From a virus (lineage: Duplodnaviria; Heunggongvirae; Uroviricota; Caudoviricetes), in the IMG/VR virus record IMGVR_UViG_2910649936_000002, positions 66,713-130,712 of that record: a stretch of 64,000 nt of DNA. One strand, given 5' to 3'. Positions 10,908 to 30,774 of this stretch are shown here, one piece after another. The translations under genes and the position numbers were made by a program. Under the pieces are notes generated by a model. That model was not told where the DNA came from, did not search any database, and saw only the letters and a list, made by a program, of their open reading frames with translations. Each line of letters starts with the position of its first letter. Positions within the stretch are counted from its first letter, which is position 1.

Positions 10908-10995
10908 TCAATTCTTTACTCGGAAAATGATTTTCCGACCGCCCCATGAGGGGCACGCACTAGGCTTGACGGCTATTTATACTCGCCTAGTCGAG

Positions 10996-11343
10996 TTATG
11001 ATACTTTCCTTTTCAGTTCATCTATTTCTTTCTGCATGGTGTCCATTTGACGAATTAAAAGGTTTACCGTGCTATTTTCCAGTTTAATCGTATTTACTGT
11101 ACTTTCAAGATTATCAAGGCGTTTATCCATTCTTTCAAAATGTTCATTTGTTCTTTCCTGTACGTTGTCGATTTCATTTAAAACTCGATTTTCTAACGCT
11201 CTCATGTCTTTTCTGACTGATGTAAACTCCGCTTTCATCTCTTTTCTAACCGATGTAAACTCCGCTTTCATCTCTTCCCTGACGCCTGATATTTCCTCTT
11301 TCATTATCGTCCGAATCATCTCTAGATCCTGTTTTTCTAACAT
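10996..11343 (-). CDS. Coiled-coil protein with 11-residue repeats (EMKAEFTSVRK x2)
   Basis: 33-bp tandem repeat; SD aggagg; upstream promoter TTGACA(11460)-N17-TATGCT. Confidence 0.8.
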   Translation of the reverse strand: MLEKQDLEMIRTIMKEEISGVREEMKAEFTSVRKEMKAEFTSVRKDMRALENRVLNEIDNVQERTNEHFERMDKRLDNLESTVNTIKLENSTVNLLIRQMDTMQKEIDELKRKVS

Positions 11344-11477
11344 TTTTTGACCTCCTTCTTTTCTATATGAAATACATTTCCCCATTAATTTCCAGTGCGA
11401 TAGCATCCTTCCTGTCTTTTAACTTGTTTCAAGCATAACTCCAGATTTTCGCTTTGTCAACTATTTTCTTTAATATA

Positions 11478-11684
11478 TTAAAGATTTTCTTTTTCATTTT
11501 CCATTATTTCTCCAGGTTGACAGTCTAGCGTATCACAAATACGTGCTATAACATCTAATGAAACGATTTTATTTTGACGCATTTTTGACATTGTAGAACT
11601 AGATGCACCTATAGCAGTTCTTAACTCTTCTACTGTCATATGCCTTCTATTCAGCATGTCAAAAAGTTTATAGTATGTTATCAT
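11478..11684 (-). CDS. Cro/C1-type HTH regulator (HTH_26-like)
   Basis: YYKLFDML…VSLDVIARICDTLDCQPGEIME signature. Confidence 0.9.
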   Translation of the reverse strand: MITYYKLFDMLNRRHMTVEELRTAIGASSSTMSKMRQNKIVSLDVIARICDTLDCQPGEIMENEKENL

Positions 11685-11729: not shown

Positions 11730-13042
11730 AGTTGTATATCTATTTGTTTCGGTTCGTTAGTTTCCATGTTTAAAATGTACTTATAGCGTCACCGCGTAAA
11801 GGTGAACCATTGACGCCATGCCGGAAATCTCCGGCTTATTATATGTCGTTTACGTCAGACATCCAGACGGCAGCTTTTTAGGTTTACAGCATATGCTTTC
11901 ATCCCTGTCGGGGGTTCGCCCGTCGCGGTTATTATATTCTTCAGTAGTCCCGCGCCTTTTTCTGATTTTTCAGATTTTTAACCTCAAATTTTTGGAAAGC
12001 CCATTCTACCTAGCTTAATCGGTAACGGTAATCATTTTAAATGTGATACCTGTTTTCACATATCGCGGTCATCATATTTTTAAACCGCTGACCGTCTCAC
12101 AGTTTAAGTACTACTTTCTATTCTGTACTGCCTGGCTCAACTTTTTCAATTTTTCAGACTATGAAAGTTTCATGTAATGTCCCTTGCTTCTGTCACGCTA
12201 CTTATTAAATTGCTATAGATTGTTTTATGTCCCGTTTGTGCGGTGGTTATTATCAACCGTCAATTTAATTTTCACATCCACAAATGATTGTATTGTCTGC
12301 CAGTTTTCAATGAAATACACTTCTTGCATCCTCTTCTGCTTTTCATGCCGTGTCAATCCCGGCAGAGAGTCAAACGCTTGAAATGTATTACATTTTCAGC
12401 GGTACAGTATAGAAAAGTTATACTTTTCAAGATGTATCGTCATATCTCATTTACGTTGTTTTTTACGGACGTTTACAATAACCTTCTACTTATTGCGTTG
12501 TGCTACTTGCATTTTATACAGTCGCATTGTATAGCTGTCTGTACTACTGATTGACGTTGTAACCGTTTAGCTTTTTTACAGAGTTCGTAACTTTGCTCTG
12601 ACTACACCCACATTTTTATTAATCGCTTTACTTTTTAGAACTGACACGGCAGAACTTCATTTCATACGCTTTTATTATATAGTTGTAGTTTTCATTTTTT
12701 CGGGAAATGTAACCGCTATAAAGTTTAATATGTAACTTTTTTGGAATGTCGCCGACTATACAAAGATAGTTCGTTTTACAGCTTGATTCCGGTGCTCTGT
12801 GTTTATACGGACTTGCAACCGTTACGGAAAAAACCGTAGTCACATTACCGGTGGTATATGCTTTTTTATGCGCTCTAGGTAAAGCTATATATACCAGTGA
12901 AACCCTAGTGTTATTTTGCAAAATAAACATTCAATACAATTTCTGGTTTGTATTAGATCAGTCATAAAACGGAACCTATTTTGACACCGCGAGAAGGTAA
13001 AGTTTTTATTGTCTAAACCGTTTTGTTTATCTCTTTTAACTT
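11730..13042 (-). ncRNA. Candidate large (~1.3 kb) structured non-coding RNA
   Basis: Consensus promoter directly upstream, no SD-led ORF, and more than 15 short hairpins visible on the minus strand. Confidence 0.45.
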
Positions 13043-21047: not shown

Positions 21048-21384
21048 AATAATGCCAAATGAGCAATTCAAAAAAATCATGAACGAATTAAAGCAGACAT
21101 GGGATTTCAATGAGGATTACAACAAATTATTCAAAAGGTACAATGTAGATGGATATATTATGTTACCGGATGCTACGGAATAAGCAATTGCTCTATTAGA
21201 AATTATATTCAACGACACAAATCATTGGATATCATATTTTATATATGATTTAAATTGGGGAAAAGATTATAAACATGGAGATATTGTGATTGATGGTAAA
21301 ATATTTGATTTGATTACGTTAGATAATTTATATGATTTATTGATAAAAGGTATTAAATTTGGGGAGGAAATTTCTATTGCTTGA
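21028..21384 (+). pseudogene. Phage gene interrupted by an in-frame TAA at 21181
   Basis: SD gagg; the frame continues after the TAA for ~67 codons (WISYFIYDLNWG…LDNLYDLL). Confidence 0.65.
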
Positions 21385-24121
21385 CTCACAAATCAATATT
21401 TATTCAATTGATACTGGTAGTTTTTATTCAAATCATGAAAAATATCTTCACGATATGAATTGCAAATATCGGAGAGAAAGAAATTTTGTTAAGAATAAGC
21501 TCCCTCCTTTAGAAAAGTCATTAAAAGATTATGGCTTTCATGATTCTGAAATTTCAAACTTTAAAATGGGTAAGACTGAAGGGTTAGAGCGTTTACCTCC
21601 AACTGATGAAATCACAAGTATAATAAATGAATACATGCATTGGAATAAATTAATACGTCATAAACGAAAAAAAGCTTATGAATCAAAAGATAAATTACTA
21701 AAATTGCTTGCTAATCGTGTCAAACAGAATCAAATCACAGACGGGAAAGATCATATCCGGTGTATTCGCGAAGAAGATATTCATGATAAAAATATTATTT
21801 CTGTTTTTGAATCATTTATTACACGCACAATTGGTATAAAGCAAGATGAATTATCGGATGCTCTAATCGTTGTACAAATATATTATTTTGATGTATTCAA
21901 AGATTTATCTTTTCATGGTTTTACTTTTCGTGGAGAAAAATATAAATATTTCACATCATCAGCGGGTCAAATTCGAAAAAAGAAAGCTGTATTTATCAAA
22001 GAATCTATATGGAATAATATTGAAAAAACTATTATGTGCGGTTTGACTGTAGATATAATCAATGCTAATGGCGGAAATAACGTAAACAAACACTTAGCAT
22101 ACATGGCACTCACAAGTTCAGCTACAGATGAATGGACTGACTTTGATATTGATCGTTGCATTGTTATTGATGATTTTGAAACTCATGTTTGGGGAACATA
22201 TGATTATGTGGATGATGTTACGTACCAGATTGAACGTCGTAATGGATATGTGCCAATTCCTCACACGGACGGAGCTGGAATGATGCTTCCTTCTGTGATG
22301 ACAAAAAATACTATGGTACGTTTACCATGGATTAAGGGACTTCTGGGTGTATTTGATTTTAGGAAGTTTATTGAAGTTCATAATTACTCTCCTATTATCA
22401 AAGATATTTATGGCAAAGAATGGAATGTTATAAATGACGATATTCAAATTATTTTTACTAAAAGTCAATTTAAAATGTGGAAGTATTATAATAGCTGGCA
22501 AGATTATAAGGATAATTTTAAAAAATTTAATTGTCAGGCAGGGTTATGTAACACAGAAGAAGACAGAATTAAAAATGCCACAATTAATTATCAAATGTTA
22601 CAAACATTAACAAATATAACCGATGATGAAATAGATAAGATTATTTCTAAATCTTATAAAAAAGTATCTAATATTTGCACATCTTTAGATACCATAAAGA
22701 ATGTTCTTGGTATAACTCCTTATAATAATCATATGACTGCTTTTCAAAGAGCAATCAAAATCTATCCAGCGTTATTAAATGACACATACGCAAAAGATGT
22801 TTTAAGAGACATTAAGAACAGTCTAGTCAAACGATATCGCAGTGGAAAGCTTGAAATCAATGGGAAATATACATTTATACTTCCAGATTTTTATGCTGCT
22901 TGTGAACATTGGTTTGGGCATATTGATGTTCCAAACGGTCTTTTAAATGATAGAGAAGTATTTTGTTGGTTATTTAAAAGATATGATAAACTTGATTGTT
23001 TACGCTCCCCTCATCTCTATAAGGAACATGCTGTAAGATATAATATTGCTAATAGTATACATGGGGATAGGGCTAAAAGAATACGAGAATGGTTCACAAC
23101 AGATGGGTTATACATAAGTACAAAGGATTTGATAAGTAGAATACTCCAATGTGATTTTGATGGAGACAAATCACTTGTAGTAGCAGACCCAACTTTCATT
23201 TCTATTGCAGAGCGTAATATGAATGGAATTGTACCACTCTTTTATGAAATGAAAAAAGCAAAGCCTACGTTGATTAATAATCAAACAATTTATGAGGGTT
23301 TAAATGCAGCATTTGTAGGTGGAAATATCGGAATATATAGTAATAATATTTCAAAAATATGGAATCATAATGTGTTTATAAATGGAACTGAAGAAGAAAT
23401 TCAACATGCTATTGATTGTGTAAAAAGATTATGCTGCCAAAATAATTTTGTTATTGATTACGCAAAAACTTTATACAAACCTGAATTTCCTCAAAAAATA
23501 TCAAAAGAAATCAAAACTTTCACCACTTTAAAGCTTCCTGCCTTTTTTGAGTTTGCAAAAGATAAATCTAAAGAACAAGTGCAAAAGCGAAACAATAGTT
23601 TTGTGAACAAACTTTATTATAGAATTCCTAACAAGCGGATGGATATAAAAAAACTTCACTTACCTAAATTAGATTATAAAATGATGATGTCTAATCCCAA
23701 AATAGTTTGTAGTAAAGAAGTATCAGATTTATATGCTCAAGTAAGCAAAGAATATAGTTTTCAAGTAAATATGAAAGATGAATTTGTAGATAATTTGCGT
23801 TATCTTGCATGTAAAATCAGGTATCAATTTAACGATTTGGGATATGCTGACGAAACTATTACAGATATGTTAGTTCAAAAAATATATGGCGGTAATAGTA
23901 GAAGAAAACAACTTTTATGGTTTTTGTACGGTTATTATATTGTGCGTAACTTGGAGAAAAACTTAGATATTAAGAAAACAAAAATTATTCAGTGCATTGA
24001 CTGCGATGAGTGGTTTGAAGTCGATATTTATTCACATGCTTGTCGTTGTAAAAATTGTCAAAAAGAATATCGAAGAACCTACCACAGAGAGCGAAATCGT
24101 AGAATTTCAACAGATCCTTGA
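21377..24121 (+). CDS. yonO: YonO-like single-subunit (two-barrel, RdRP-like) phage RNA polymerase
   Basis: Catalytic QCDFDGDK motif; TDGAGMMLP, RSPHL and SNNISKIWN blocks; C-terminal CxxC…CxxC; SPbeta-like synteny. Confidence 0.85.
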   Translation: MLDSQINIYSIDTGSFYSNHEKYLHDMNCKYRRERNFVKNKLPPLEKSLKDYGFHDSEISNFKMGKTEGLERLPPTDEITSIINEYMHWNKLIRHKRKKAYESKDKLLKLLANRVKQNQITDGKDHIRCIREEDIHDKNIISVFESFITRTIGIKQDELSDALIVVQIYYFDVFKDLSFHGFTFRGEKYKYFTSSAGQIRKKKAVFIKESIWNNIEKTIMCGLTVDIINANGGNNVNKHLAYMALTSSATDEWTDFDIDRCIVIDDFETHVWGTYDYVDDVTYQIERRNGYVPIPHTDGAGMMLPSVMTKNTMVRLPWIKGLLGVFDFRKFIEVHNYSPIIKDIYGKEWNVINDDIQIIFTKSQFKMWKYYNSWQDYKDNFKKFNCQAGLCNTEEDRIKNATINYQMLQTLTNITDDEIDKIISKSYKKVSNICTSLDTIKNVLGITPYNNHMTAFQRAIKIYPALLNDTYAKDVLRDIKNSLVKRYRSGKLEINGKYTFILPDFYAACEHWFGHIDVPNGLLNDREVFCWLFKRYDKLDCLRSPHLYKEHAVRYNIANSIHGDRAKRIREWFTTDGLYISTKDLISRILQCDFDGDKSLVVADPTFISIAERNMNGIVPLFYEMKKAKPTLINNQTIYEGLNAAFVGGNIGIYSNNISKIWNHNVFINGTEEEIQHAIDCVKRLCCQNNFVIDYAKTLYKPEFPQKISKEIKTFTTLKLPAFFEFAKDKSKEQVQKRNNSFVNKLYYRIPNKRMDIKKLHLPKLDYKMMMSNPKIVCSKEVSDLYAQVSKEYSFQVNMKDEFVDNLRYLACKIRYQFNDLGYADETITDMLVQKIYGGNSRRKQLLWFLYGYYIVRNLEKNLDIKKTKIIQCIDCDEWFEVDIYSHACRCKNCQKEYRRTYHRERNRRISTDP

Positions 24122-25291: not shown

Positions 25292-25700
25292 CATTATTAC
25301 TAAGATGAAAGACTCATATAATATTGTGATTGTCGGACGCTTCTTGGCAGATGAAGTATAATGCTGCTAAATCAAAATGAAAATGGGTAAAACAAGAAAG
25401 TACATATACTTTTAATGTTGATATGATTTAAATGATTGCGTTATTTGTTTCTATATGTGATATTTCCTATTTCTGTATTTTGTCAATACGTTCGGTATGA
25501 TCGTACATTCAATCTATGAGAATCGTTTCAATAAAGTATAATTATATATTAATGAACAGTTGGTAGAAATAACCAAGTAAATAATTTCACATAATTTGAT
25601 ATTCACATTGTCTGAAGTCGCAGTACTTATACGAGTTTTCATATATTGTATCAGTGGCGGTTCTGGATGTATCATTCAATTTGGCACCGTCACTGAATTT

Positions 25701-25771
25701 TGGGATATGGTGTAATGGTAACACATAAGACTTTGACTCTTATAACTCAGGTTCGAATCCTGATATCCTAG
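25701..25771 (+). tRNA. tRNA-Gln(UUG)
   Basis: Full cloverleaf; anticodon stem TAAGA/TCTTA, loop CT-TTG-AC, T-loop TTCGAAT. Confidence 0.9.
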
Positions 25772-26836
25772 TTGTCAGAATCTCTAACATGGTGCTCGCT
25801 GCCGGGCGGCGCAGAATTGGCAGACGTGTCATTCTTGTTGCGGTTCTGATAATATGTAACAATTCAGATGGACGTCACATCGGCAACAAGATTGGTTGTG
25901 AATGATTGTTACAGAGCGAATTGAAGTCGGTCTTTTCGCTATATAAAAATAGAAACAAGGGCAAATCGACAGTAGCCTCGTTTCATTAAAAACCCGTGTT
26001 AAAATTGCTCTAAAAACAACAGTGGCGATTGGGAGAAATGAAGTTCAGCGCAAAGAGCAAGCGAGACTCATATAGTTACCGAAAGCCCAGTCAGTTTATA
26101 CGTGGGAAGCTGACACTATAAGTACCACAAGGTATTAGATGTTTCTGGTGTGTACCAGAAAAGGTTTTAATGGTTGTGGGAAGTTGCCTATTTGTAAGTG
26201 TAGAAAGGTTTCTTGAACCGCTTTGGCGGTTCATGCGGAGATTCCGACTCTCCTAAAACACGTTTTCATAGTGTGGCTACGGACTATGAAGTAATTGCAG
26301 GCGTAGTATTGGTGCATGAGGGCATGGGAGACTGCTTAAATGTGTGCAATCCTATCATGGGAATGGGGCCATGCACAGCCAATAGGACAGTAAGCCGATG
26401 TATAAGTCGTGTCAAGTATATGACAACGATCATATTGAAAGCACAATATGATTTGCGGGACGCCGGGCTTATATCGCAATCCTTAAAATTTAAATCGCCA
26501 ATATTAACGCATGATAACCGGTCAATTTTATGCGAGACCACTGAGAGGAAGAATCCTTCTTACCACGAATGAGGTGGTGTGAAAACAGTAGCAATTCAGG
26601 TCGCTCCTAATGAATTTCGGACATAAATTGCGATCCGTGGATATAGTGGAAAGGCGGTAAAGGCTTATCGCATTGAGCCATAATCAATGTACGGGGCTGC
26701 CGGTTAAACAGCACCTTGCACTGGGTATAATAGTGTCATCAGGTCTTGCGGATTAAGCGATAGATGTAAAAACGACATCCGATAGTGTCAAGCATGGCAC
26801 GAAAAACATCAATGCAAGCCAGGATGACTGGCTTAT
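25772..26836 (+). ncRNA. Large structured ncRNA candidate (GOLLD/ROOL class)
   Basis: ~1.06 kb, GC-richer, without a credible ORF, densely hairpinned, and flanked by tRNA-Gln and tRNA-Tyr. Confidence 0.6.
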
Positions 26837-26926
26837 GGGAGAAAGGTCACTGTTGGTTGTGTGTCGGCAGACTGTAAATCTGTTCCCTTGTGGTAAACAT
26901 CGGAGGTTCAATTCCTCCTTCTCCCA
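26837..26926 (+). tRNA. tRNA-Tyr(GUA)
   Basis: Acceptor GGGAGAA/TTCTCCC, anticodon GCAGA-CTGTAAA-TCTGT, long variable arm; atypical D arm. Confidence 0.8.
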
Positions 26927-26986
26927 TTCCACAGTAGCTAGTACCCTATAGGCTGTCAGGTACGGCAGCGGCTACGGGAGGAACCT

Positions 26987-27058
26987 GGCTCCGTGGTCAA
27001 GCGGTTAAGACATCGCCCTTTCACGGGTGTAACGTCGGTTCAAATCCGGCTGGAGTCA
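26987..27058 (+). tRNA. tRNA-Glu(UUC), anticodon stem with two mismatches
   Basis: Typical Glu D-arm GTCAAGCGGTTAAGAC; anticodon stem TCGCC/GGGTG. Confidence 0.75.
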
Positions 27059-27270
27059 TTTTTCCACCGAGCAAGGCGGTTCAACCCACTAAGAAGCCTT
27101 GCGAAAAAACTTTTCCAGAGAGATAAGACCAAAGACCGTGAGGAGTGGTAGTCGGTGATTCTGGAATATCCCCGGAAGTATACGTTATTTCATGTGTATT
27201 GCGCCTAAAGGGCATTAAAATGGTGGTTTTATATGGGGATTAAAGGCTGATAGTTTAAATAAATTGATAA

Positions 27271-27304
27271 GAAACCCATTGGCTTTAGACAATGGGTAGT
27301 TCAC
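27271..27304 (+). mobile_element. Orphan IS200/IS605-family right end
   Basis: Hairpin cccattg-gctttaga-caatggg followed by tagttcac; no tnpA/tnpB nearby. Confidence 0.6.
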
Positions 27305-27359
27305 AACCACTAGTAGCTGGTGATGAACTGGTGTCGGGGTTTGAGTCCCTGATGTGGCG
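27305..27359 (+). pseudogene. tRNA remnant (T-arm and 3' acceptor strand)
   Basis: CGGGG-TTTGAGT-CCCTG T-arm followed by ATGTGGCG; no anticodon arm. Confidence 0.4.
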
Positions 27360-27362
27360 TTT

Positions 27363-27446
27363 GCCGTGTTCCCATAATGGTATTGGAACGGATTGCTAAT
27401 CCGTCGCCGGATATCCGGCTTATAGGTTCGAGTCCTATACACGGCG
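27363..27446 (+). tRNA. tRNA-Ser(GCU)
   Basis: Acceptor GCCGTGT/ACACGGC, ACGGA-TTGCTAA-TCCGT, long variable arm. Confidence 0.88.
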
Positions 27447-27473
27447 CTAAAATATCATCATGTTTTTAAATAT

Positions 27474-27547
27474 GGAGCTGTAGCTCAGTTGGTTGTAGCG
27501 CGCGACTGTTAATCGCGAGGTCAAAAGTTCGAGCCCTTTCAGCTCCG
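27474..27547 (+). tRNA. tRNA-Asn(GUU)
   Basis: GGAGCTG/CAGCTCC, CGCGA-CTGTTAA-TCGCG; weak T stem. Confidence 0.85.
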
Positions 27548-27596
27548 TTTACCACTGACCGATATGTGGTATATAAATGGTCGGGTTGTATAGTTT

Positions 27597-27668
27597 TACA
27601 GAAAGACTGTTGGTCGTCCGCTATGGCTCATAACCATAGTTACGTGGGTTCGATTCACACTTCTGCCA
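27597..27668 (+). tRNA. Degenerate tRNA with CAU anticodon (Met/Ile2), unpaired positions 1-2
   Basis: TATGG-CTCATAA-CCATA and T-loop TTCGATT; acceptor TACAGAA/TTCTGCC with two terminal mismatches. Confidence 0.55.
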
Positions 27669-27776
27669 CTACTCTCCTATTTGGAGAAATTCGTATATTG
27701 AAAGGAAACAGCCAGCTAAAAATATTTTACAAAAAGTTTATAACTTTTTATAAGTTTTCAGTAACGGAAGATTCAA

Positions 27777-27950
27777 ATAGTTAAAATATCTACACAAGAA
27801 AAAGACTATCTTATATCTCGTGGTGTCACATTCGGATATGGTGGCATCAGTCATACTGACAGCAGACATCGACGTTCATATTATCTGTGCGAGTCGAGAT
27901 ACAACATGAAAGTTTTACAAAGATATCGCAATTCAAGAATTACAAAATAA
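27777..27950 (+). CDS. Small hypothetical protein, probable ATA start
   Basis: 57-codon frame IVKISTQEKDYLISRG…; not in the ORF track. Confidence 0.5.
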   Translation: MVKISTQEKDYLISRGVTFGYGGISHTDSRHRRSYYLCESRYNMKVLQRYRNSRITK

Positions 27951-27984
27951 CGCTTAAAACTCAGGCAGAAAGGCGGTTATTATT

Positions 27985-29418
27985 ATCGCTTCAAAAAAGA
28001 AAAAGAATATAAAAGTTTCATTTGTAGACTCTCCATCATCCGAAGATGTAACTGGAAGTCTTATTTTTGTTTCTACACCAAATCATAAAATTTTAGTTGA
28101 TGCAGGGCTACATCAAACGAATGATCGGTATCATGACTTTCTAGTAAATAATCGAAAATTCAAAGAATTTAAACCTAAAGAAATAGATTATATTTTTATA
28201 ACACATCTCCATGCCGACCATGCCCTTCTTCTCCCAAAATTGTTTAAAGACGGGTGCCGTGCAAAAACTATTATGACAAGTGAATCTGCGGCGGTATTAG
28301 AAGATATGGCAATGGATTGTGCAGAAATCAATCAAAGAGATGTTTTACTAATTAATAATCAACATAGTAAGAACTACCCTCCTCTTTATACTGAGAATAA
28401 TGTGGAATTGATGTTGAATTATGTCTACGAGTATCCTATAAATTCGCTTATAAAAATTGATGAAGAGTTATCTTTTGAATTAGTTCCAAGTGGTCATCTT
28501 CTTGGAAGTTGCCAAATCATGCTTTATATTACCATTGATAATGCCAAAAAGTCTATACTCGTCACAGGAGATATTGGAAATAAACAAGTTAAAAATCGAT
28601 TCGTCGGAGAATATCAGCAAGTTCGTTCTGCTGATTTAGTAATTGGTGAAGCTACGTATGGAGATAAGCCTACTCTTAAAACTGGTAAAAAAGAACGTAG
28701 AAATGATTTAGAAAAATTTAAATCTATTATCGATACTCAGATAAAGGAATTAAACGGCAGGGTTATTATTCCCTGTTTTGCTCAATCAAGGATTCAGCAG
28801 CTTTCTTTAATGGTATATCAAATGTATAAGGATTCGGAATGGAAACCTAAAACTTATATTGATTCTCCATTGTCTATTAAAATTTTTAATGATTATCAAA
28901 AGTGTTTAAGCGGCAAAGACAAGGAAGACTTTGATGAAATGTTGGAAAGTAATTTTTTAACATTTATCAAAGAATCGGAAGACAGCAAGTACCTTGTTGC
29001 AAGTAATGAACCTTGCCTTATTTTATCAACTTCAGGTATGTGCCAGGTTGGAAGAATTAGACATCATTTAAAACGATGTATTCCTGATCCTAATGCTACA
29101 TGCTTATTTGTCGGTTTTTGCACAGATGGAAGTCTTGGAGCAATCCTCAAAGATGATACGCGTACTTCTATTACTATAGATCAGAAAGAATACCCTTGTA
29201 GATGTGCAGTTTATAACCTCAAGAGTATGTCTGGTCATTCACCATTTAATCAGTTGGTAGAAAACTATACAGAAATCAACTGTAACAAGATAGTTTTGCA
29301 TCATGGATCAAGTAAAGCAAAAGATACACTTAAAAAAGCCCTAGAAAAAGAATTTGCAAAGAAATGTAAATCAACTAGAGTTATAATAGCTAATTCTAGT
29401 TTAAAATTTAATTTATAA
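27985..29418 (+). CDS. MBL-fold beta-CASP ribonuclease-like hydrolase (non-AUG start)
   Basis: THLHADH lies upstream of the track start at 28240; SGHLLGS, TGDIG, SGMC.VGRI, SGH and LHHG motifs; SD agaaaggcgg followed by ATT/ATC. Confidence 0.85.
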   Translation: MASKKKKNIKVSFVDSPSSEDVTGSLIFVSTPNHKILVDAGLHQTNDRYHDFLVNNRKFKEFKPKEIDYIFITHLHADHALLLPKLFKDGCRAKTIMTSESAAVLEDMAMDCAEINQRDVLLINNQHSKNYPPLYTENNVELMLNYVYEYPINSLIKIDEELSFELVPSGHLLGSCQIMLYITIDNAKKSILVTGDIGNKQVKNRFVGEYQQVRSADLVIGEATYGDKPTLKTGKKERRNDLEKFKSIIDTQIKELNGRVIIPCFAQSRIQQLSLMVYQMYKDSEWKPKTYIDSPLSIKIFNDYQKCLSGKDKEDFDEMLESNFLTFIKESEDSKYLVASNEPCLILSTSGMCQVGRIRHHLKRCIPDPNATCLFVGFCTDGSLGAILKDDTRTSITIDQKEYPCRCAVYNLKSMSGHSPFNQLVENYTEINCNKIVLHHGSSKAKDTLKKALEKEFAKKCKSTRVIIANSSLKFNL

Positions 29419-29640: not shown

Positions 29641-30774
29641 ATGGCAAGAAAGAAAACAAATCAAGAATTTATTTCCGAGTTAAAAGAGAAGAATATTGGG
29701 TATATTCCATTAGAGGAATATATAAATGCAACTACAAAAATTAAATTTCGTTGTAGTAGTGGACATGTATGGAAAGCAACACCACATAACATACTAAATG
29801 GAAGAGGTTGTCCGTATTGCAATCATTCTATTAAACTTTCAAATGCAGACTTTATTACAAGATTAAAAAGAGTAACAAATACAATAATACCATTGGAAGA
29901 ATATAAATCGTTTCACGAAAAGATTCAATGTTTGTGTACGGAATGCGGAAATAAATGGATGGTTTCTCCTGCAAAACTTTTAAATAATCGTGGGTGTCCA
30001 GTTTGCTCGCGTAAAATATGTGGTAAAAATAGAATTTCAAATCATGAGGGTGATTTTTTATTAAAATTAAAGAATAACAAACCTAATATTCTTTTATTAG
30101 AAGAATACTCCGGTGTGGATCATCCAATACAATTTAAATGTAATATATGTGGTTATGAGTTTTGTACAACTCCATACAAGGTATTAAAATCAAAATATGG
30201 TTGTAAAAATTGTCATAACAATTTCATGAAAATTTCAAATAACGATTTCAAAACTAGGCTCTCTATAGTTCTTCCCGATATTATTCCTATTGATGATTAT
30301 ATTAATTTTCATACAAAAATCAAATATTATTGTAAAAATTGTGGAGAATTTCATTATGCATCGCCAGGTAATTTATTACATGGATATGGATGTCCAACCT
30401 GCAATGCATCAAAAGGTGAAAAACGATGTAAATCAGTATTAGAAAAAATTGATATTGCGTATGAACCCCAATACATTTTTCCAGATTTACTTGGGATAAG
30501 AGGCGGAAATTTGAGATTTGATTTTGGTATATTAAATCATCAATTAAATTTAATAGGACTTATAGAATATGACGGAATATTTCATTATAAGAAGCAATAT
30601 GAAAATGATGGATTTGAAAATATTAAAATACACGATGATTTAAAAGATAATTATTGCATCAATCATGGCATTCCGTTATTAAGGATTCCATATTGGGATT
30701 TTGATCGCATAGAAAAATTGATATCCGCATTTATTTTCAACATTAATAATAAACAAATTGAAAGGTGTGTTTAA
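29641..30774 (+). CDS. Free-standing homing-endonuclease-like protein (tandem zinc-ribbon repeats plus a Vsr/PD-(D/E)xK-type C domain)
   Basis: Four KI.F.C..CG…GCPxC repeats; LRFDF…IEYDGIFHY…LLRIPYWD. Confidence 0.75.
   Translation: MARKKTNQEFISELKEKNIGYIPLEEYINATTKIKFRCSSGHVWKATPHNILNGRGCPYCNHSIKLSNADFITRLKRVTNTIIPLEEYKSFHEKIQCLCTECGNKWMVSPAKLLNNRGCPVCSRKICGKNRISNHEGDFLLKLKNNKPNILLLEEYSGVDHPIQFKCNICGYEFCTTPYKVLKSKYGCKNCHNNFMKISNNDFKTRLSIVLPDIIPIDDYINFHTKIKYYCKNCGEFHYASPGNLLHGYGCPTCNASKGEKRCKSVLEKIDIAYEPQYIFPDLLGIRGGNLRFDFGILNHQLNLIGLIEYDGIFHYKKQYENDGFENIKIHDDLKDNYCINHGIPLLRIPYWDFDRIEKLISAFIFNINNKQIERCV

What the first reader, a model, noticed from the sequence alone, without database searches (positions are those of the whole stretch)
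25772..26836. ~1-kb GOLLD/ROOL-class giant ncRNA candidate embedded in the tRNA cluster
Seen: a 1,065-nt interval between tRNA-Gln and tRNA-Tyr that is GC-richer than the genome and has no SD-led ORF. It contains many stems (ttgtcagaa/ttctgataa, tgtaacaat/attgttaca, gaaccgc-tttg-gcggttc, atcatattg/caatatgat, aagcc…ggctt). Established: GOLLD and ROOL are large ornate RNAs of Firmicutes phages located beside tRNAs, with unknown function. Inference: a member or new variant of this class; family assignment cannot be made by eye.
Basis: partly seen in the sequence, partly recalled or inferred. Interest (0 to 1): 0.7.

Follow-up and report, generated by a model that had tools for sequence, protein, structure and literature searches.

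The report
Phage array of uncatalogued small RNAs
The gene-free kilobase between two tRNA genes of this gut-type prophage is not a GOLLD or ROOL giant RNA; it is most likely a string of at least six separately folding, uncatalogued small RNA modules that related phages gain, lose and reorder, one with a loop that stays self-complementary and one a common pseudoknot placed directly in front of phage tRNAs.

Summary
Observation confirmed: the 1,064-nt interval is GC-rich (43% vs 32%), holds the named stems, folds better than shuffles (z -2.8) and has no credible ORF. The family guess fails. Rfam GOLLD and ROOL give no hit at E<=10, although they score 173-309 bits in the same slot of related SPbeta-like phages; my ROOL and GOLLD profiles also miss it. 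Homologues came through spurious antisense 'proteins': three short metagenome contigs from two lineages share five blocks (70-91% identity, compensatory pairs, single-base indels). Blocks are present, absent or reordered between them, and a 10-bp long-range helix predicted in the window is broken. The last 53 nt are a separate pseudoknot-plus-hairpin module found in about 147 loci, usually 1-6 nt before a tRNA, and absent from Rfam. The first module has a 6-nt loop that changes at 4 of 6 bases yet stays palindromic, a sign of a self-kissing loop. Best reading (0.6): a cassette array of small stable RNAs cut from the tRNA precursor, like T4 RNAC/RNAD. A single new modular giant RNA remains possible (0.25). 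No expression data. The scan noted similar arrays on other DNA.

The parts
25700..25772 (+). tRNA-Gln(TTG), 5' boundary
25773..25851 (+). Closed 79-nt branched domain (10-bp closing helix, pairing probability 0.96); no homologue found
   Evidence: (z -2.8)
25855..25913 (+). Module M1: three-way junction; 9-bp closing stem and second hairpin each with two compensatory pairs; invariant 4-bp stem carrying a palindromic 6-nt loop (GACGUC here; GCGCGC, ACCGGU, GCCGGU in homologues), candidate symmetric kissing loop
   Evidence: 70-74% identity; in L582 it starts right after a tRNA-Ser. RNAalifold on 4 rows, two truncated, recovers only the 4-bp stem
25914..26180 (+). Unassigned hairpin-rich stretch; no significant homologue (about 57 nt in L581, about 170 nt in L582 at this place)
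26184..26249 (+). Module M2: two hairpins; shared with L580/L581, not found in L582
   Evidence: 82% identity, E 4e-6 in a search of the three contigs
26257..26385 (+). Module M3: hairpin with four compensatory pairs plus a multibranch; shared with L582; replaced in L581 by a distantly similar block X
26391..26478 (+). Module M4: closed cloverleaf-like four-way junction, the best conserved block
   Evidence: 91% identity to L581, 82% over M3+M4 to L582; 30 predicted pairs, 3 with change on both sides
26490..26655 (+). Unassigned structured stretch with a GG-UCGCU-CC hairpin (26599) like ROOL P18; no homologue, no ROOL model hit
26662..26696 (+). Module M5: short conserved block; in L581/L582 it directly precedes tRNA-like genes; its pairing in the window is not settled
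   Evidence: 82% identity over 33 nt; 3 pairs broken in the window row
26782..26834 (+). Module M6: H-type pseudoknot (GUG/CAC, GCA/UGC, A-rich loop) plus a 7-bp covarying hairpin, ending 1-2 nt before tRNA-Tyr; widespread tRNA-leader motif absent from Rfam 15
26836..26927 (+). tRNA-Tyr(GTA); M6 plus this tRNA match L484 as one unit
   Evidence: E 1e-16
21359..24121 (+). Context: single-subunit RdRP-family (YonO-like) RNA polymerase gene, marks an SPbeta-like prophage
   Evidence: YonJ/YonK/YonG/YonV neighbours in relatives
27985..29418 (+). Context: beta-CASP metallo-hydrolase (RNase J/CPSF family) gene with probable ATC start; candidate processing nuclease (inference)

Best explanation
The interval is the non-tRNA part of a prophage tRNA operon: a cassette array of at least six small, self-closing RNA modules (M1-M6, 35-130 nt) with unassigned structured spacers. 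Shown: the modules exist, are held by base-pair conservation, and vary independently in presence and order. Inferred: the cluster is transcribed as one precursor; RNase P and RNase Z-type cuts at the tRNA ends, perhaps aided by the adjacent phage beta-CASP nuclease, release the pieces; closed modules persist as stable small RNAs like T4 RNAC/RNAD. M6 most likely acts in processing: after the cut at the tRNA 5' end it becomes the structured 3' end of the upstream piece, or a nuclease-resistant small RNA. M1 most likely dimerises through its palindromic loop. The cloverleaf-like M4 is the best candidate for a tRNA mimic or decoy against host tRNA-cutting defences. These roles are hypotheses (about 0.35-0.5 each, given the array).
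For: Presence and absence: M2 in L581 not L582, M3 in L582 not L581. Order: a 140-nt block X (86% identical) lies before M4 in L581 and after M4 in L582. L581 has about 385 nt between M4 and M5, holding a tRNA-like sequence (by eye) and a block also found in L410/L429/L484. M6 occurs without the other modules in about 147 loci; 30 of 48 distinct copies end within 6 nt of an ARAGORN tRNA, and most others precede tRNA-like sequences by eye; its hairpin is paired in 280 of 280 cells with compensatory changes at 4 of 7 positions. M6 was found in 0 of 277 loci anchored on the phage's own proteins, so it came in as a cassette. Local stems covary (M1, M3, M4), while the window's 10-bp helix 25891/26383 is broken at 3 of 9 aligned pairs in L582, and helix 25877/26401 has 1-2 broken pairs and no compensation.
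Against: M1, M4 and M5 keep the same order in all lineages. The window folds in silico into two large nested domains (25877-26401, 26472-26762) with pairing probabilities 0.6-0.95. GOLLD itself tolerates tRNAs and variable linkers inside it (PMC12990946). The homologues of M1-M5 are three contigs of 1.0-1.6 kb from two lineages, and L582 carries adapter-like sequence at one end, so mis-assembly is possible. Only 444 of 1063 nt have any homologue. No RNA data.
Confidence: 0.6

Rival explanations
1. One new class of large ornate RNA (about 630-980 nt, from M1 to M4 or M5) with a conserved scaffold and swappable peripheral domains, homo-oligomerising through the M1 palindromic loop and filling the GOLLD/ROOL slot; M6 caps its 3' end.
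For: Same genomic slot as ROOL (15 loci) and GOLLD (7 loci) among 277 anchored loci. Collinear M1-M4-M5. Palindrome covariation is the signature of symmetric bridges in OLE and GOLLD (PMC12286853). Nested long-range helices in the window fold. A ROOL-like GG-UCGCU-CC hairpin at 26599.
Against: Long-range helices are not compensated in homologues; block X changes place; tRNA-like genes and unrelated modules are interleaved. The 26472-26762 domain has no counterpart in the homologues or in 99 other loci.
Confidence: 0.25
2. A highly diverged GOLLD or ROOL.
For: Genomic slot; isolated short motifs resemble ROOL (GGUCGCUCC followed by UCGGAC) and GOLLD (GUGGAUA).
Against: No Rfam hit at E<=10 while relatives score 173-395 bits. 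An HMM of 32 ROOLs and one of 5 GOLLDs give nothing in the interval. A ROOL 3'-domain covariance model finds a held-out ROOL at 72.5 bits and nothing here with filters off. The true homologues resemble neither family by eye.
Confidence: 0.05
3. Mostly decayed tRNA genes and processing spacers with no function as RNAs, apart from the M6 leader.
For: The cluster holds damaged tRNAs (26986-27059 has a 2-letter anticodon; weak calls at 27306 and 27597). About 58% of the interval has no homologue. Folding z-scores are moderate.
Against: 82-91% identity and compensatory pairs in M3 and M4 between the window and unrelated contigs; palindrome maintained in M1; no tRNA-like call inside the interval until ARAGORN is relaxed to the level where it also calls noise.
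Confidence: 0.1

Closest known systems
T4 RNAC and RNAD, small stable RNAs of the phage tRNA region (PMC3014915)
   Same: Small non-tRNA RNAs encoded inside a phage tRNA cluster; function unknown.
   Different: No sequence relation tested or seen; here six or more modules in a Firmicutes prophage, and transcription is not shown.
ROOL RNA (Rfam RF03087; PMC5737381, PMC12286853)
   Same: Same slot in related phages; one GG-UCGCU-CC hairpin like P18; M6 is common in ROOL-bearing tRNA clusters.
   Different: No model hit; no ROOL P1-P19 architecture; homologues are mosaics.
GOLLD RNA (Rfam RF02032; PMC12286853, PMC12990946)
   Same: Similar length, placed between tRNAs, occupies this slot in the closest relatives found (L201, L219; polymerase 72% identical).
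   Different: The conserved 3' domain that defines GOLLD is absent.
Theta ribozymes, HDV-like, beside tRNAs of gut phages (PMC10879173)
   Same: M6 is likewise a small pseudoknotted RNA fixed next to tRNA genes of gut phages and suggests a processing role.
   Different: M6 lies 5' of the tRNA and I could not fit it to the nested double pseudoknot of HDV-like ribozymes (by eye); no cleavage shown.
Symmetric kissing loops of OLE L9.3 and GOLLD L21 (PMC12286853); retroviral dimer initiation loops (own knowledge)
   Same: M1 loop switches between palindromes across lineages.
   Different: Only three independent loop sequences; dimerisation untested.

Membership tests
GOLLD (RF02032) | Conserved 3' domain matching the covariance model (gathering 150 bits) | tested here: not met
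   No hit at E<=10; controls L099 172.6 and L201 200.5 bits; full-length HMM of 5 local GOLLDs gives nothing in the window
GOLLD (RF02032) | About 800 nt, beside tRNAs in a phage or prophage | tested here: met
   1,064-nt interval between tRNA-Gln and tRNA-Tyr of an SPbeta-like prophage; context only
ROOL (RF03087) | Match to the 574-position model (gathering 99.1 bits) | tested here: not met
   No hit; controls L001 286.7, L006 308.8 bits; HMM of 32 ROOLs negative
ROOL (RF03087) | P17-P19 3' subdomain | tested here: not met
   Model R2 finds held-out L091 at 72.5 bits; the interval is not among 28 window matches at E<=10; only the P18-like hairpin sequence is present
Large ornate RNA (new class) | Covarying long-range helices joining distant domains | tested here: inconclusive
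   Two predicted long-range helices are broken or uncompensated in 2 lineages; too few sequences for a statistical test
Large ornate RNA (new class) | One discrete abundant transcript; homo-oligomer | not testable with these tools
Small stable RNAs of phage tRNA clusters (T4 RNAC/RNAD type) | Short, self-closed, conserved non-tRNA modules inside a tRNA cluster | tested here: met
   M1, M3, M4, M6
Small stable RNAs of phage tRNA clusters (T4 RNAC/RNAD type) | Released from the precursor and stable in infected cells | not testable with these tools
   Needs RNA data
Any Rfam 15 family (for M6) | Match at gathering score | tested here: not met
   No family covers M6 in the window or in 11 loci that carry it
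Protein-coding gene | Conserved reading frame | tested here: not met
   No homologue of the 119-aa ORF; single-base indels in six of seven aligned blocks; the antisense hits are singleton predictions, one needing TGA=W

The most novel reading that the evidence does not exclude
M1-M5 are swappable domains of one previously undescribed giant RNA, a third or fourth class in the GOLLD/ROOL slot of SPbeta-like phages, which self-assembles through the covarying palindromic loop and is capped at its 3' end by the tRNA-leader pseudoknot.
Probability: 0.22. Interest if true: 0.78.

Novelty: new variant of a known kind. Interest (0 to 1): 0.47.

Why it matters
Phage tRNA clusters have been known for decades to carry small RNAs of unknown role, and GOLLD and ROOL are unexplained too. 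This locus shows one genomic slot in a phage family filled by ROOL, GOLLD, a third uncatalogued 850-nt element, or a module array, which makes swap and deletion comparisons possible. It yields two compact, testable motifs missing from Rfam 15: a very common pseudoknot fixed just before gut-phage tRNAs, the likely 5' counterpart in position of theta ribozymes, and a 60-nt junction with a probable self-kissing loop.

Tried and rejected
No hit for the whole interval in phage and plasmid records, among about 350 loci gathered with neighbouring proteins or guessed patterns, or in three samples of about 400 genomes each (the 9 weak matches looked like chance). Three guessed DNA patterns gave chance matches. 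My by-eye idea of a ROOL 3' domain at 26520-26670 failed its model test; that model was if anything biased in favour, since its members were picked with a pattern partly taken from the window. A one-sequence model of 26565-26725 found only itself. Group I/II intron, RNase P, tmRNA and pistol or HDV folds were considered by eye and by Rfam and not supported. Promoter and terminator scans were at chance level. My first structure string for M6 was one column out of register; one search corrects it. Several hand-entered helix registers (M3 3' stem, M4 closing helix, M5, first pair of M2) were wrong and are not used; replace them.

Full report
Setting. The window is part of a large SPbeta-like prophage: an RdRP-family single-subunit polymerase at 21359-24121, terminase and portal genes downstream, and YonJ, YonK, YonG, YonV genes in relatives. 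Its proteins are on record on one 1.96-Mb contig, and the closest polymerases in named genomes lie in Lachnospiraceae. The host is therefore inferred, not shown.

Observation. The interval between tRNA-Gln and tRNA-Tyr is as described: GC 43.5% against 31.9%, all five stems present, z -2.76 for 1000 nt. The 119-aa ORF has no clear ribosome-binding site, family or homologue.

Family test. Rfam gives only tRNAs in 25300-28200 at E<=10. The same library finds ROOL at 287-309 bits and GOLLD at 173-201 bits in the equivalent slot of relatives, so the negative is meaningful. Among 277 loci anchored on the phage's proteins, 15 carry ROOL, 7 GOLLD and 4 a third 850-nt element with no Rfam hit. Profiles built from local ROOLs and GOLLDs, and a covariance model of the ROOL 3' subdomain that recovers a held-out ROOL at 72.5 bits, find nothing in the interval. 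One ROOL-like hairpin at 26599 remains unexplained; among unselected loci that 9-mer occurred only in ROOLs.

The 3' module. A pattern scan meant for ROOL brought in loci whose tRNA clusters match 26782-26835 (E 9e-6). In 40 copies the terminal hairpin is paired in 280 of 280 cells, with both sides changed at four positions; the window has its own A-U pair. The two pseudoknot stems are nearly invariant, so they are plausible but not proven by covariation. No Rfam family covers it. None of the SPbeta-like relatives has it, and module plus tRNA-Tyr match an unrelated 59-kb phage contig as one unit.

The rest. Searching the meaningless antisense ORF against predicted proteins returned three singleton 'proteins' that are mis-called antisense frames over homologous DNA. 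Two were fetched: L580/L581 (near-identical, one study) and L582. They match the window at E 2e-39 and 6e-27 within those contigs, in blocks of 70-91% identity with single-base indels. M1 keeps a three-way junction with four compensatory pairs in L582, and its 6-nt loop reads GACGUC, GCGCGC, ACCGGU or GCCGGU. Each of two lineages changed four of six bases and stayed palindromic; my rough chance estimate is 1 in 250, noticed after the fact. Such covariation marks intermolecular kissing loops in OLE and GOLLD (PMC12286853). M3 has four compensatory pairs and M4 folds as a closed four-way junction.

One RNA or many. M2 is missing from L582 and M3 from L581; block X lies before M4 in one and after it in the other; L581 has a tRNA-like sequence and a foreign block between M4 and M5. 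X resembles M3 weakly, so duplication and loss could explain the order, which is still modular behaviour. The long-range helices that close the window's predicted 525-nt domain are broken or uncompensated in the homologues. This favours an array. Against it stand the constant order M1-M4-M5, the small and short sample, possible mis-assembly, and 58% of the interval without homologues.

Mechanism. Shown: non-coding, locally paired, modular. Inferred from general knowledge of tRNA operons: co-transcription and release of the pieces by RNase P and RNase Z-type cuts, giving small stable RNAs as in the T4 tRNA region (PMC3014915). Hypotheses: M6 as a processing or end-protecting leader, M1 as a dimerising unit, M4 as a tRNA mimic, and the adjacent beta-CASP protein as a processing enzyme. 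Nothing here shows transcription.

Verdict. Not GOLLD or ROOL. Most likely (0.6) a cassette array of uncatalogued small RNAs; a new modular giant RNA is the main rival (0.25). The array reading was prompted by earlier scan notes on other genomes and then tested on this DNA. Interest 0.47.

Noticed in passing
L104 6567-7428; L108; L096 6605-7434; L106 6571-7410: A third 830-860-nt element between tRNAs in the same slot: no Rfam hit, conserved over its whole length among these loci, both halves fold at z -3.2, ends in a GOLLD-like UCUCAGCCU. A better candidate for a new single giant RNA than the finding itself.
   Followed up: partly
window 27985-29418: The beta-CASP gene appears to start at an ATC codon behind a Shine-Dalgarno sequence; ATC at the same place in at least 19 of 28 relatives by a crude rule.
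   Followed up: partly
window 10934-10996 (-): Pistol ribozyme, 66.3 bits.
   Followed up: no
window 25292-25699: AT-rich spacer folds at z -3.6; the hairpin at about 25651-25696 just before tRNA-Gln is shared with L200 and looks similar in L001, L201, L219.
   Followed up: partly
window 26986-27059, 27306-27389, 27597-27669: A tRNA-Glu-like gene with a 2-letter anticodon call, and two weak tRNA-like genes seen only at relaxed thresholds.
   Followed up: no
L130 870-889, L137 3552-3571, L136 3071-3091: A short hairpin RNA with the GG-UCGCU-CC loop inside other phage tRNA clusters, outside ROOL.
   Followed up: no
L182 about 11320-11505; L078 about 12185-12300: Another module shared by L581/L582 and these polymerase-anchored loci but absent from the window.
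   Followed up: partly
window 29641-30774: Homing-endonuclease-like gene with a 21-member cluster at 90% identity, found in phages with otherwise different neighbours: recent spread.
   Followed up: no
L008 13929-14442: ROOL copy matched in two pieces with about 90 model positions missing.
   Followed up: no
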